Positions 31,401 through 34,400 of a stretch of 64,000 bases of DNA are shown here, piece by piece. The stretch lies in the NCBI RefSeq assembly GCF_057098645.1, contig NZ_CM169472.1. The stretch is one strand, 5' to 3'. Position 1 is the first letter of the stretch. Each line of letters opens with the position of its first letter. A program made the position numbers.

Positions 31401-34400
31401 TAACTATTCAGAAAGAAGCGATTATTAATTCTGATGTCATACTTCTGCAGCTCGAAACAAATTATACCGCTCTGCAACAAGCGATCACATTGGCGCAAAA
31501 AAACAGTATCCCGGTCATTATTAACCCGGCACCCTATAATGATATCGTCAACGAACTTATTCAGGATGTTGATTATATCACCCCCAATGAAACAGAAGCT
31601 GGTTTACTGTCCGGCATAGACGTACACGATCTTGAATCAGCTAAACGAGCTGCAGAAGCTATCCACAATAAAGGGGTAAAAAACACGGTTATCACGCTCG
31701 GTAGCAAGGGCTCGCTCGCATTTGATGGCAAAAAATTCATTCATTCGCCAGCGTTTCCAGCGGTCGTTAAAAATACGGCAGGAGCCGGGGATGCGTTTAA
31801 CGGCTCTCTGGCATCAGGACTTGCGAAAGGAAAATCACTGGAATCAGCACTGTGTTATGCCAGCGCCTTTGCATCCCTAGCGGTGGAGACAAGCAATGCT
31901 TCCGACATGCCTGAACATGAATCTGTGATACATCGAATTCAGAGTATACATTATCAGCAAACTATTTTTACGCATTAAGAAGGGACAGAGAATGAATAAC
32001 ACCAAAAAATCACTAAAAGTGCTCTTTATTGGGGATGGATTTGCCCCTATATTTCCAGACATCTGTTATCACTTAACCCATTACAAGCCCGCTGCCGCAG
32101 ATATTCCCGTGGCGAGCGATAACCCAGCGCACTATGCGGATGCCATTCGTTATAATGCTCGAACGCCTCTGCAAGGTTCTTTGCTGCCGTTAACCCGTCT
32201 GGTTTGGGCATGATACTGATGTAGTCACGCTTTATCGTTTTCACGAAGCTCTCTGCTATTCCGTTACTCTCCGGACTCCGCACCGCCGTGTTCTTCGGTT
32301 CAAGTCCCAACATCCGGGCGAACTGGCGTGTTTCATTAGCCCGGTAGCATGAACCATTATCCGTCAGCCACTCCACTGGAGACGACGGAAGATCGTTGCC
32401 GAAGCGGCGTTCCACCGCTCCCAGCATGACGTCCTGTACTGTTTCACTGTTGAAGCCGCCGGTAGTCACCGCCCAGTGCAGTGCCTCACGATCACAGCAG
32501 TCCAGCGCGAACGTGACACGCAGTCTCTCTCCGTTATCACAGCAGAACTCGAACCCGTCAGAGCACCATCGCTGATTGCTTTCTTTCACGGCCACTCTGC
32601 CTGTATGTGCCCGTTTCGATGGCGGTACAGCAGGTTTTCGCTCAAGCAACAGCGCATTCTGGCGCATGATCCGGTAAACACGTTTGGCATTGATCGCAGG
32701 CATACCATCAAGTTCTGCCTGTCTGCGAAGCAGCGCCCATACCCGACGATAACCATACGTGGGCAGCTCTCCGATAACATGGTGTATACGGAGAAGCACA
32801 TCCGTATCATCAGTGTGACGACTGCGGCGGCCATCCATCCAGTCATCGGTTCGTCTGAGAATGACGTGCAACTGCGCACGCGACACCCGGAGACAACGGC
32901 TGACTAAGCTTACTCCCCATCCCCGGGCAATAAGGGCGCGTGCGCTATCCACTTTTTTGCCCGTCCATATTCAACGGCTTCTTTGAGGAGTTCATTTTCC
33001 ATCGTTTTCTTGCCGAGCAGGCGCTGGAGTTCTTTAATCTGCTTCATGGCGGCAGCAAGTTCAGAGGCAGGAACAACCTGTTCTCCGGCGGCCACAGCAG
33101 TAAGACTTCCTTCCTGGTATTGCTTACGCCAGAGAAATAACTGGCTGGCTGCTACACCATGTTGCCGGGCAACGAGGGAGACCGTCATCCCCGGTTCAAA
33201 GCTCTGCTGAACAATTGCGATCTTTTCCTGTGTGGTACGCCGTCTGCGTTTCTCCGGCCCTAAGACATCAATCATCTGTTCTCCAATGACTAGTCTAAAA
33301 ACTAGTATTAAGACTATCACTTATTTAAGTGATACTGGTTGTCTGGAGATTCAGGGGGCCAGTCTATCTGGAGATTCAGGGGGCCAGTCTAAGATGTCCT
33401 TACCCTGCGCCATCTGCAGCTTCTGCACCAGAACCGGTGAATCTCACTCAACAGGCTTCATTTCCCCTGACGCCAGCCTGAATACAGCTGGCGTTTTCAT
33501 TTATAAACAGAAAGGAAAACCGATAATAATGGAATGGACGCCCCGACCATGAAGCAACGGTAGGATATTACTGATAAACCTTCCAGTGGAGGTGCGTTAT
33601 GGCCGTTTTAACGATTAGCATTGACCTGACAAAAAATGAATTCCAAATCCACGGTCTGGGTAGGAACAGAAAAATCTAAGCTCAGAAAACGGATTAAAGT
33701 AAGCGTCAACGGAGCACCGTATTGACGCTTATTTATTGGTGAGAACTACGTTCCATGGCAGGAGTTCGTCAACACGGTTGGAGGGCCATTCCGGCAGTAT
33801 GCTCAGAATATGGCGCAGATACGCTTCCGGATCGATACCGTTCAGACGGCAGGTGCCTGCTTTTCCGGCAACAAGCAGGAATCTCAGTGCTGAAGCAGGA
33901 ATTAGAGGTAAAAACGCCCTACCGGGCCATGAATCACCCGGTCATTGGAGTAGTAACCAAAGCAGATTTAGCCAGCATGGAACAAATATCTTTGGTGAAA
34001 AGTTGGTTACGGGAAGCTGGAGCGCACAACGTGTTAGTAACCAGTGCAGTTAATAACAATGGAGTTACAGAACTTTTTGCCTTGCTGCATACAGAAGAAG
34101 GCTGTTGTTAATTTCGATTGGTTCTCAGATGAGAATGATGACGGTGATACACAGATAAGAATCAATGAGCAATGAGGGTTGCCGGGCAACCCTCATTGAA
34201 TAAAACGGGAATTACTTCGCTTCGCCGTTTTTCATTTCGCCCATAGCTTTCAGCTTTTTGGAGATATCGCGGCGTTCTTTGGAGAGCTCGGCATTTTTGA
34301 TGATGTAATCGTCAACGCGATCTTCATAGTCACCTTTCATGCTGGCGATGATGCCCTGGATTGCTTCAACGCTCATCCCAGGCTTGATGTAATCGCTCAG

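What the first reader, a model, noticed from the sequence alone, without database searches (positions are those of the whole stretch)
33342..33391. IS2 terminus duplicated in tandem and no target-site duplication
The last 25 bp of IS2 are followed by an exact second copy, and the element's flanks (GGGGA on one side, no matching 5-mer on the other) do not show the usual 5-bp duplication. This suggests the copy arose by recombination between two IS2 elements or through an abortive transposition intermediate, not a simple insertion. An assembly artefact is also possible.
Basis: seen in the sequence. Interest (0 to 1): 0.3.

Follow-up and report, generated by a model that had tools for sequence, protein, structure and literature searches.

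The report
IS2 with a doubled left tip
A normal IS2 insertion sequence carries an extra exact copy of its last 25 bases; the same rare "stutter" recurs at other sites in other E. coli genomes, so it is most likely real, probably a scar of one IS2 landing in the end of another, and this copy also marks a ~10-kb deletion.

Summary
A complete, near-canonical IS2 (1,331 bp, minus strand, 32036-33366) is followed by an exact second copy of its 25 terminal left-end (IRL) bases (33367-33391). No 5-bp target duplication is present.

The missing duplication has a simple cause. The left flank is nt 1-44 of a glutamine-amidotransferase gene and the right flank is the tail of a DUF957 pseudogene. Both lie in the cobU-tmaR island, and about 10.4 kb that separates them in strain P13-6 is absent. 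So this IS2 sits at a deletion junction.

The doubled tip is a separate matter. The same 25+25 structure occurs at four other loci in other E. coli. Two of them have perfect 5-bp duplications around the whole 1,356-bp unit. The IS2 bodies are about 4% diverged from this one, there is never more than one per genome, and the carriers are IS2-rich genomes. 51-bp and 54-bp versions also exist inside de Bruijn contigs.

An assembly artefact and an abortive intermediate are therefore unlikely. My best model is that an IS2 inserted into a resident IS2 left end at positions 21-25, a published curvature maximum, and the near-tandem pair then collapsed by homologous recombination. This mechanism is inferred, not shown. 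The result is a modestly interesting new variant of a known element.

The parts
32036..33366 (-). Complete IS2 (1,331 bp), near-canonical sequence. The right end (IRR) is at the low coordinate and the left end (IRL) at the high coordinate.
   Evidence: 2-3 mismatches to IS2 copies annotated 'IS3-like element IS2 family transposase' in L001, L006 and L007.
32036..32076 (-). IRR, the 41-bp right inverted repeat. Its tip TGGATTTGCCCC abuts the left flank.
   Evidence: (inverted repeat I1). The 41-bp length is from PMC3299598.
32047..32952 (-). orfB (301-aa ORF), the catalytic part of the OrfAB transposase.
   Evidence: ORF list. Matching copies are annotated with a programmed frameshift.
32910..33320 (-). 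orfA (136-aa ORF).
   Evidence: ORF list.
33325..33366 (-). Inner, complete IRL (42 bp). Its tip is at 33366.
   Evidence: The 42-bp length and domain structure are from PMC3299598.
33367..33391 (-). Outer partial IRL: an exact copy of IRL positions 1-25 only. It lacks positions 26-42 of the protein-binding domain.
   Evidence: (repeat D1, 100%).
31992..32035 (+). The first 44 nt of a glutamine-amidotransferase gene. This is the left deletion breakpoint, directly abutting the IRR tip.
   Evidence: L007 1-4536 aligns to window 27500-32035 at 99.6% and then continues into the intact gene.
33391..33440 (+). The last ~50 nt of a DUF957-family pseudogene at the distal end of a CP4-44-type island. 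This is the right deletion breakpoint.
   Evidence: L001 4560-8168 aligns to window 33391-36998 at 98.7%. The native upstream sequence differs.

Best explanation
Two separate events are recorded at this IS2. (1) The extra 25 bp is a scar of IS2 landing in IS2. An incoming IS2 circle integrated, in the same orientation, into the left end of a resident IS2, using IRL positions 21-25 as its 5-bp target. That gives resident(L1-25) | incoming IS2 | resident(L21-end). The two 1.3-kb direct repeats then collapsed by homologous recombination, leaving one IS2 plus the resident's outermost 25 bp. The inner tip is therefore a transposase-made end joined precisely to position 25. The resident's original target duplication is kept around the whole unit. 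The outer 25 bp lacks the binding domain, so progeny circles form from the inner end and are ordinary 1,331-bp copies. (2) Independently, this copy lost its target duplication because it sits at a ~10.4-kb deletion inside the cobU-tmaR island. The most likely cause is recombination between two directly oriented IS2 copies, one in the amidotransferase gene and one in the DUF957 gene. Shown here: the structure, its recurrence, the target-duplication pattern, and the deletion junction. Inferred: the nested-insertion route and the recombinational collapse.
For: - Recurrence. The identical 25+25 junction is present in 4 of 5,426 complete genomes (3 loci) and one draft (L008), against 19,650 IS2 left ends overall.
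- Target duplications. Perfect 5-bp duplications bracket the full 1,356-bp unit at L003 (AAAAC) and L004 (ATAGT).
- Different backbones. The doubling sits on IS2 bodies 53-57 mismatches apart, which points to independent origins.
- No spread within a genome. There is one doubled copy per genome, even in genomes with 14-32 IS2 copies.
- IS2-rich hosts. Carrier chromosomes hold 14, 26 and 32 IS2 left ends. The maximum in an even sample of 33 chromosomes is 10 and the overall median is 3. This is expected if IS2 is both the projectile and the target.
- Precise junction. The inner copy always starts exactly at the tip, and there is no microhomology with the varied flanks, as expected of transposase strand transfer.
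- Other lengths. 51-bp and 54-bp doublings also exist, as expected if the insertion point varies.
- Two source elements. The outer and inner copies differ by one base in L008, which fits an origin from two elements.
- Published support (PMC3299598). Curvature maxima are predicted at L25, L6, R25 and L60, and IS2 preferentially inserts at or near bent DNA. Single-base deletions at IRL positions 26 or 29 abolish circle formation, so the outer copy should be inert.
- Precedent. Orientation-specific targeting of an element's own ends is documented for IS30 and IS911 (PMC9333248).
- Deletion. Both flanks are collinear with one island, with 11,777 bp between them in P13-6, of which 1,336 bp is that strain's own IS2.
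Against: - No uncollapsed nested IS2-in-IS2 intermediate was seen; all four complete-genome hits are single elements.
- No inverted-orientation nested junction at position 25 was found. Such a structure would be a 1.3-kb near-palindrome and probably inviable, so this is weak evidence.
- R25 is also a curvature maximum, yet no 25-bp doubling of the right end exists. That query would have missed lengths other than 25.
- The other IS2 targets seen here (GTAAA, ACTGG, GCTTC, CTGAT, AAAAC, ATAGT) share no motif that explains why L21-25 is hit repeatedly.
- The 51- and 54-bp boundaries fall exactly at the inner base of a palindrome. A replication or structure-based mechanism predicts that more naturally.
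- No reads from the window's genome could be examined, and its lineage was not found in any collection.
Confidence: 0.45

Rival explanations
1. Re-copying during replication or repair at the recipient end. In copy-out, the flank 3'-OH released next to IRL primes replication into the element. Stalling at bound transposase/OrfA or at a hairpin, followed by restart from the tip, could duplicate the first N bases in situ.
For: - The doubling is specific to the left end at N=25. IRL is the exclusive recipient end, next to which the strand joining occurs (PMC3299598).
- The boundaries at 51 and 54 coincide exactly with the inner base of the palindrome at positions 34-51 / 31-54. The boundary at 25 is one base past a CTGG/CCAG stem.
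- An in-situ origin also explains the retained target duplications and the single copy per genome.
Against: - There is no microhomology between the base preceding the tip (the flanks differ at every locus) and positions 25, 51 or 54, so a slipped nascent strand has nothing to re-anneal to.
- A displaced-flap route would be expected to leave the 1-bp junction spacer between the copies, and none is present.
- The one-base difference between the copies in L008 needs an additional mutation.
Confidence: 0.2
2. A heritable 1,356-bp IS2 variant that transposes as a unit using the outer tip. The doubling arose once, spread by transposition, and moved onto other IS2 backbones by recombination near the end.
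For: - Target duplications flank the outer tip at two loci.
- The L003 and L004 elements differ by only 3 bases although they come from unrelated strains.
- The last 87 bp before the doubling are nearly invariant among IS2 variants, so an end exchange by recombination is possible.
Against: - There is never more than one doubled copy per genome, even with 14-32 IS2 copies, and none on 72,556 plasmids.
- The outer copy lacks IRL positions 26-42. Published single-base deletions at 26 or 29 abolish circle formation (PMC3299598).
- The doubling is present on backbones 18-57 mismatches apart.
- 51- and 54-bp versions exist.
Confidence: 0.15
3. An assembly or finishing artefact in this particular window. 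For example, an untrimmed k-mer overlap where a collapsed IS2 node was joined to the unique flank would produce [last k of IS2][last k of IS2]flank.
For: - The geometry is exactly what an untrimmed 25-base overlap at a repeat/unique boundary would give.
- The window's exact junction is found in no other assembly.
- No reads are available.
Against: - The identical 25-bp doubling occurs in five independent assemblies from different laboratories, once per genome rather than at every repeat boundary.
- In L008, L009, L010 and L012 the contig starts 124-126 or 54 nt before the INNER tip. The de Bruijn assembler therefore treated the outer copy as unique, read-supported sequence.
- The 51-bp form appears in both an isolate and a metagenome.
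- No 25-bp doubling of the right end exists, although an artefact should be symmetric.
Confidence: 0.07
4. One reading: a trapped or abortive transposition intermediate, such as a figure-of-eight, a minicircle junction or a tandem dimer.
For: The structure involves a precise transposon tip, and the copy lacks a target duplication.
Against: - IS2 intermediates abut the IRR tip and the IRL tip with a 1-2 bp spacer (PMC3299598). Here an IRL tip abuts IRL position 25 and no IRR sequence is present.
- The same structure is stably inherited, for example in strains 33-6 and 58-3, and sits in clean insertions with target duplications.
Confidence: 0.03

Closest known systems
IS2 (IS3 family, copy-out/paste-in insertion sequence of E. 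coli)
   Same: It has the 1,331-bp body, the 41/42-bp IRR/IRL, orfA/orfB with a frameshift, and 99.8% identity to annotated IS2.
   Different: It carries an extra 25-bp copy of IRL positions 1-25 outside the normal tip, and this copy has no 5-bp target duplication.
IR-targeting by IS30 and targeted insertion by IS911 (insertion next to a resident copy's inverted repeat)
   Same: A copy-out/paste-in element uses a resident copy's end as its target, in an orientation-specific way, and homologous processing can follow (PMC9333248).
   Different: Those reactions insert next to the IR tip and create an active IRL-IRR junction. Here the implied target is 21-25 bp inside IRL, and the product is an IRL-IRL partial tandem with no IR-IR junction. 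Dual target specificity has not been documented for IS2.
Hybrid IS at a deletion junction (recombination between two directly repeated IS copies)
   Same: There is no target duplication, and the flanks are collinear but non-adjacent parts of one island with ~10.4 kb missing.
   Different: This explains only the missing duplication. It does not explain the doubled tip, which also occurs on copies with intact duplications.
IS2 'mini-insertions' IS2-6 and IS2-7 at the IS2-gal junction (Ghosal and Saedler, 1978-79). Recalled from memory and not verified here.
   Same: They are short duplications of IS2 sequence arising at an IS2 end.
   Different: As I recall, those were longer and partly inverted copies, selected for promoter activity. 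No held paper describes them, so the comparison is only a lead.

Membership tests
IS2 (IS3 family) | About 1,331 bp with a 41-bp IRR and 42-bp IRL, ending in TGGATTTGCC... and ...GGCCAGTCTA | tested here: met
   32036-33366 is 1,331 bp and both termini are present. It has 2-3 mismatches to annotated IS2.
IS2 (IS3 family) | Overlapping orfA and orfB that produce OrfAB by a -1 frameshift | tested here: met
   There are ORFs of 136 aa (32910-33320) and 301 aa (32047-32952) on the minus strand. Near-identical copies are annotated with a programmed frameshift.
IS2 (IS3 family) | A 5-bp direct target duplication flanking a simple insertion | tested here: not met
   The flanks are GGGGA versus AGATG (outer tip) or TCTGG (inner tip). 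Six control copies gave perfect 5-bp duplications. This bears on the copy's history, not on its identity as IS2.
Deletion junction formed through IS copies | The flanks are non-adjacent but collinear segments of one region in related genomes, and homology breaks exactly at the IS tips | tested here: met
   L007 1-4536 aligns to window 27500-32035 and L001 4560-8168 aligns to window 33391-36998. The two points are 11,777 bp apart in P13-6.
Deletion junction formed through IS copies | Parental IS2 copies at each breakpoint exist in related strains | tested here: inconclusive
   No genome has IS2 at exactly either breakpoint. IS2 copies in the same orientation do occur at four other sites within ~830 bp on the left, and near yeeW/DUF957 on the right.
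Nested IS2-in-IS2 insertion scar | The inner copy is complete to its tip, the outer partial copy also ends at a tip, and both have the same orientation with no spacer | tested here: met
   The same holds for L003-L005, L008, L009 and L010.
Nested IS2-in-IS2 insertion scar | The resident's target duplication is retained around the composite unit | tested here: met
   L003 AAAAC and L004 ATAGT. This could not be assessed in the window because of the deletion junction.
Nested IS2-in-IS2 insertion scar | An uncollapsed intermediate exists (two IS2 copies, one interrupting the other's IRL) | tested here: not met
   Such an intermediate would contain the same junction, but all four complete-genome hits are single elements. 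The inverted form is also absent. Both forms are expected to be unstable.
Minicircle junction or tandem IS2 dimer (active intermediate) | The IRR tip abuts the IRL tip with a 1-2 bp spacer, forming the Pjunc promoter | tested here: not met
   The junction joins an IRL tip to IRL position 25 with no IRR sequence. No promoter-like site is created there.
Assembly artefact (untrimmed k-mer overlap) | Not supported by spanning reads; affects both ends and many repeat boundaries in one assembly | tested here: not met
   This holds for the other carriers: one per genome, none at the right end, and the outer copy lies inside de Bruijn contigs. The window's own reads are not testable with these tools.

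The most novel reading that the evidence does not exclude
IS2 has a second, previously undocumented target mode. Its transpososome is directed, in a fixed orientation, to a specific point (L21-25, the L25 curvature maximum) inside the weakly bound left end of resident IS2 copies. The 25-bp doubling is the natural footprint of this self-targeting. That would extend the IR-targeting known for IS30 and IS911 to IS2, with a different geometry (inside the repeat rather than beside it). It would also give a sequence signature for counting such events in genome collections, and could act as a sink that limits IS2 expansion in IS2-rich genomes.
Probability: 0.25. Interest if true: 0.5.

Novelty: new variant of a known kind. 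Interest (0 to 1): 0.35.

Why it matters
In practical terms, the doubled tip should not be "corrected" as an assembly error or read as a live transposition intermediate. The absence of a target duplication here marks a ~10-kb island deletion.

In mechanistic terms, a precise doubling limited to the left end recurs at the same base on unrelated IS2 backbones, only in IS2-rich genomes. That is natural-population evidence about how IS2 treats its own ends, and its boundary coincides with a curvature maximum predicted by published in-vitro work. If the self-targeting reading holds, it gives a simple sequence signature for counting IS-into-IS events in genome collections. It also gives a testable link between DNA bending in IRL and target choice.

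The finding does not reveal a new kind of element or system.

Tried and rejected
- **Source lineage.** No complete E. coli genome joins both flanks. The right junction is unique. Exact-product look-ups for three junction-spanning ORFs found nothing.
- **Exact 26-nt junction scans.** Scans of 100k species-representative genomes and 241M metagenome contigs gave 0 hits. The gapped scan of species representatives also gave 0. Plasmids gave 0.
- **The doubling creates a promoter.** The idea was outer TAGACT as a -35 and inner TAGACT as a -10. The spacing is 19 nt and the consensus scan finds nothing there. Rejected.
- **Slippage between the AGAC repeats at L2-5 and L23-26.** This predicts a 21-bp period, not 25. 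Rejected from the sequence.
- **Inverted nested junction at position 25.** None found. Such a palindrome would probably be inviable, so the result is uninformative.
- **25-bp doubling of the right end.** None found. The hits were single ends with chance flank extension, and lengths other than 25 were not tested.
- **Strain H8's full-length 85.7% match.** It looked like a shared junction. The alignment shows an IS2 inserted 39 bp away in a paralogous DUF957 gene, not the same site.
- **Shigella sonnei L011.** This is not a clean tandem: inner tip, then AAAA, then a 131-bp left-end remnant. I did not count it as a doubling.
- **Literature.** No held paper describes the doubling or the Ghosal/Saedler mini-insertions. 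The IS911 targeting papers are not held.
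Full report
**1. The observation**

The window carries the 25-mer TCTGGAGATTCAGGGGGCCAGTCTA at 33342-33366 and again, without a single difference, at 33367-33391. The repeat stops exactly at both edges. The first copy is the genuine left terminus of an IS2. From the right-end tip TGGATTTGCCCC at 32036 to 33366 the element is 1,331 bp and lies on the minus strand. It has a 136-aa orfA and a 301-aa orfB. It differs by only 2-3 bases from copies that RefSeq annotates as "IS3-like element IS2 family transposase".

The five bases outside the right end are GGGGA. Those outside the left end are AGATG after the outer copy, or TCTGG after the inner copy. No target duplication is present. 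The same script found perfect 5-bp duplications at six of ten IS2 copies fetched from other genomes, so the test works.

**2. Why there is no target duplication**

Local alignment shows that window 27500-32035 is collinear, at 99.6%, with cobS-cobU-IS66 fragment-PfkB kinase-glutamine amidotransferase in strain P13-6. The homology stops exactly at the IS2 right tip, 44 nt into the amidotransferase gene.

Window 33391-36998 is collinear, at 98.7%, with a DUF957 pseudogene tail, a transposase fragment, yoeF, tmaR, yeeA, sbmC and dacD in strain ECCHD184. That homology starts exactly at the outer left tip, with 1 bp of ambiguity because the native flank also begins with A.

In P13-6 both breakpoints lie in one island in the same relative orientation, 11,777 bp apart. 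Of that, 1,336 bp is P13-6's own IS2 plus its duplication. About 10.4 kb is therefore missing from the window: a DMT transporter, a phosphotriesterase-like gene, an ISL3 element, yeeS/yeeT, cbeA/cbtA and yeeW.

This IS2 is a deletion junction. The simplest route is homologous recombination between two directly oriented IS2 copies. No genome in the collections carries a parental copy at exactly either breakpoint. However, IS2 copies in the same orientation are common on both sides of the island.

**3. The doubled tip is a separate, recurrent structure**

I used a 38-nt junction-specific query. A single-copy end shares at most 25 contiguous bases with it, which is below megablast's 28-nt word, so it cannot seed a hit. 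The query finds the identical doubling in 4 of 5,426 complete E. coli genomes and in none of 72,556 plasmids. For scale, those genomes contain 19,650 IS2 left ends.

The four genomes represent three loci:

| Locus | Site | Strain(s) |
|---|---|---|
| L003 | ecpD | 33-6 and 58-3 (related) |
| L004 | a DUF1398 gene | WS4437A-1 |
| L005 | autotransporter / AAA-domain junction | 2017.17.03CC |

At ecpD and DUF1398 the gene is simply split, and perfect 5-bp duplications (AAAAC, ATAGT) bracket the whole 1,356-bp unit including the outer copy. So the doubling does not require a rearranged copy.

The bodies of these elements are 53-57 mismatches (about 4%) from the window's canonical IS2, and up to 21 mismatches from each other. 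Each genome has exactly one doubled copy although it holds 14-32 IS2 left ends.

**4. More cases from draft and metagenome assemblies**

An ORF reads outward across the left end, so a protein search could survey drafts and metagenomes. It returned the following:

| Locus | Assembly | Outer copy | Notes |
|---|---|---|---|
| L008 | GCA_030511535.1 | 25 bp | Fifth independent locus; one A-to-G difference from the inner copy |
| L010 | GCA_050286245.1 | 51 bp | Exact tandem |
| L009 | GCA_016858685.1 | 54 bp | Exact tandem |
| L011 | Shigella sonnei | 131-bp remnant | Inner tip, then AAAA, then the remnant; not a clean tandem, so not counted |

A gapped scan of metagenome contigs found the same 51-bp doubling with the same flank in an independent SPAdes metagenome contig, L012.

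**5. Is it an assembly artefact?**

An untrimmed k-mer overlap at a repeat/unique boundary would produce exactly this geometry, so I took the idea seriously. Several results argue against it.

- The doubling occurs once per genome, not at every repeat boundary.
- It was produced by at least five unrelated assemblies.
- A synthetic query for a 25-bp doubling of the right end finds none, whereas an artefact should be symmetric.
- Contigs L008, L009, L010 and L012 begin 126, 124, 126 and 54 nt before the inner tip. That is where a k=127 or k=55 de Bruijn contig starts if the base after the inner tip is the first unique base. The outer copy was therefore assembled from reads that span it.
- The 51-bp form is supported by two independent data sets.

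For the window itself no reads are available and its lineage is not in any collection searched. A small residual probability of artefact remains.

**6. What the structure says about mechanism**

Numbering from the tip inward, the outer copies are L1-25, L1-51 and L1-54. In every case the inner copy begins precisely at the tip. The bases outside the tip differ from locus to locus and share no microhomology with L25, L51 or L54. A precise tip joined to an unrelated phosphodiester bond is the signature of transposase strand transfer, not of slippage. Slippage between the AGAC repeats at L2-5 and L23-26 would give a 21-bp period.

Lewis et al. (PMC3299598) provide the relevant rules:

- IRL is 42 bp, with an 11-bp cleavage domain and a protein-binding domain at positions 12-42.
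- Single-base deletions at positions 26 or 29 abolish minicircle formation.
- IRL is the exclusive recipient end and is bound more weakly than IRR.
- IRR attacks 1 bp outside IRL.
- Predicted curvature in the two ends has strong maxima at R25, L25 and L6, plus one at L60.

Two inferences follow.

First, the outer 25 bp lacks L26-42. Circles should therefore form from the inner IRL and leave the outer copy behind. This explains why the doubling never multiplies within a genome, and it implies that each doubling arose in situ.

Second, an IS2 circle that integrates in direct orientation into a resident IS2, with L21-25 as its 5-bp target, gives resident L1-25 | new IS2 | resident L21-end. Any crossover between the two 1.3-kb direct repeats leaves exactly IS2 plus 25 bp, still flanked by the resident's original duplication. 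This accounts for:

- the precise junction;
- the retained duplications;
- the occurrence on different IS2 backbones;
- the variable lengths (25, 51 and 54 bp);
- the one-base difference between the copies in L008;
- the coincidence of the recurrent boundary with the L25 curvature maximum;
- the restriction to IS2-rich genomes. Carriers have 14, 26 and 32 left ends, against a maximum of 10 in an even sample of 33 chromosomes and a median of 3.

The inverse-orientation product was not found. It would be a 1.3-kb inverted repeat with a 20-bp spacer, which E. coli is not expected to tolerate (established knowledge of SbcCD action on long palindromes). Orientation-specific targeting of an element's own ends has precedent in IS30 and IS911 (PMC9333248).

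**7. Weaknesses and rivals**

No uncollapsed intermediate was seen. R25 is an equal curvature maximum, yet the right end shows no 25-bp doubling; stronger transposase occupancy of IRR is only a possible excuse, and lengths other than 25 were not tested. The 51- and 54-bp boundaries sit exactly at the inner base of the palindrome at L34-51 / L31-54, which contains the conserved binding block TATCACTTAA.

That last point, together with the left-end specificity, fits a rival. In it, the replication that restores the donor during copy-out starts next to IRL, stalls at bound protein or a hairpin, and re-copies the tip. I rate this lower because it has no way to re-align the nascent strand without microhomology.

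A second rival is a transposing 1,356-bp variant. It is disfavoured by the single copy per genome, the incomplete outer binding domain and the diverse backbones.

The abortive-intermediate idea is contradicted by the junction itself, since IS2 intermediates join IRR to IRL with a 1-2 bp spacer.

The doubling creates no consensus promoter.

**8. Comparison with what is known, and verdict**

The element is IS2 by every test except the target duplication, which was lost through the deletion. I found no description of the left-end doubling in the searchable literature. From memory only, the 1978-79 "mini-insertions" IS2-6 and IS2-7 are the nearest historical parallel, and I could not verify them here.

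I classify the finding as a new variant of a known kind. It is real, rare (about 2 in 10,000 left ends) and recurrent, and it bears on how IS2 treats its own ends. It is not a new system. Interest is 0.35.

Noticed in passing
window 31902-32035, and equivalent positions up to ~32726 in L006, L007, L013 and L014: An IS2 insertion hot spot. Five independent IS2 insertions fall within ~830 bp: PfkB kinase 76 bp before its stop, and amidotransferase nt 44, ~323, ~622 and ~734. All have the same orientation, and the four outside the window have perfect 5-bp duplications (GCTTC, CTGAT, ACTGG, GTAAA). This could reflect target preference or selection for inactivating the gene.
   Followed up: partly
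window 29986-30160 (+): A remnant of the left end of an IS2-like element, in inverse orientation to the main IS2. Its first 55 bp are identical to the IS2 IRL region (TAGACTGGCCCCCTGAATCTCCAGACAACCAATATCACTTAAATAAGTGATAGTC), and the rest is ~83% identical. It is conserved in strains CE0011b and P13-6. This solo transposase-binding end lies ~2 kb from the IS2 hot spot.
   Followed up: partly
window 30497-30659 and 33690-33857: A pair of transposase-gene fragments (IS66-family / yoeD-like), ~88-89% identical and in inverted orientation, lies on either side of the IS2. This is a potential substrate for inversion.
   Followed up: no
L001 (E. coli ECCHD184) 3002-4332: A single-ended canonical IS2 with no target duplication joins the torS-cspG-cspH region to yeeW at the CP4-44 distal end. 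It is another IS2-associated large rearrangement that ends in the same ~250 bp as the window's right breakpoint.
   Followed up: no
L002 (E. coli H8 and ~9 other strains) 1747-3077: A diverged IS2 variant sits in a paralogous DUF957 gene, 39 bp from the position homologous to the window's right breakpoint. Its flanks are TTCAG and TTCGG, one mismatch short of a duplication. The DUF957/yeeW region looks like a second recurrent IS2 target.
   Followed up: partly
L011 (Shigella sonnei GCA_900160495.1) 1-202: An IS2 left tip is followed by AAAA and then a 131-bp second copy of the IS2 left end, next to a fimbrial usher gene. The spanning ORF has 33 member sequences, so the structure is widespread in S. 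sonnei.
   Followed up: partly
window 33232-33366 (+), the outward-reading ORF from the IS2 left end: The spurious ORF that reads out of the IS2 left end into whatever flank follows ([45 protein letters not shown]...) is named 'nitrite extrusion protein 2' in many NCBI/UniRef records. This is a propagated mis-annotation.
   Followed up: no
H61-H64 (E. coli UTME strains), malY/patB: A single-ended IS2 whose flank after the left tip is AGATGT, the same six bases as the window's right flank. This is probably coincidence.
   Followed up: no
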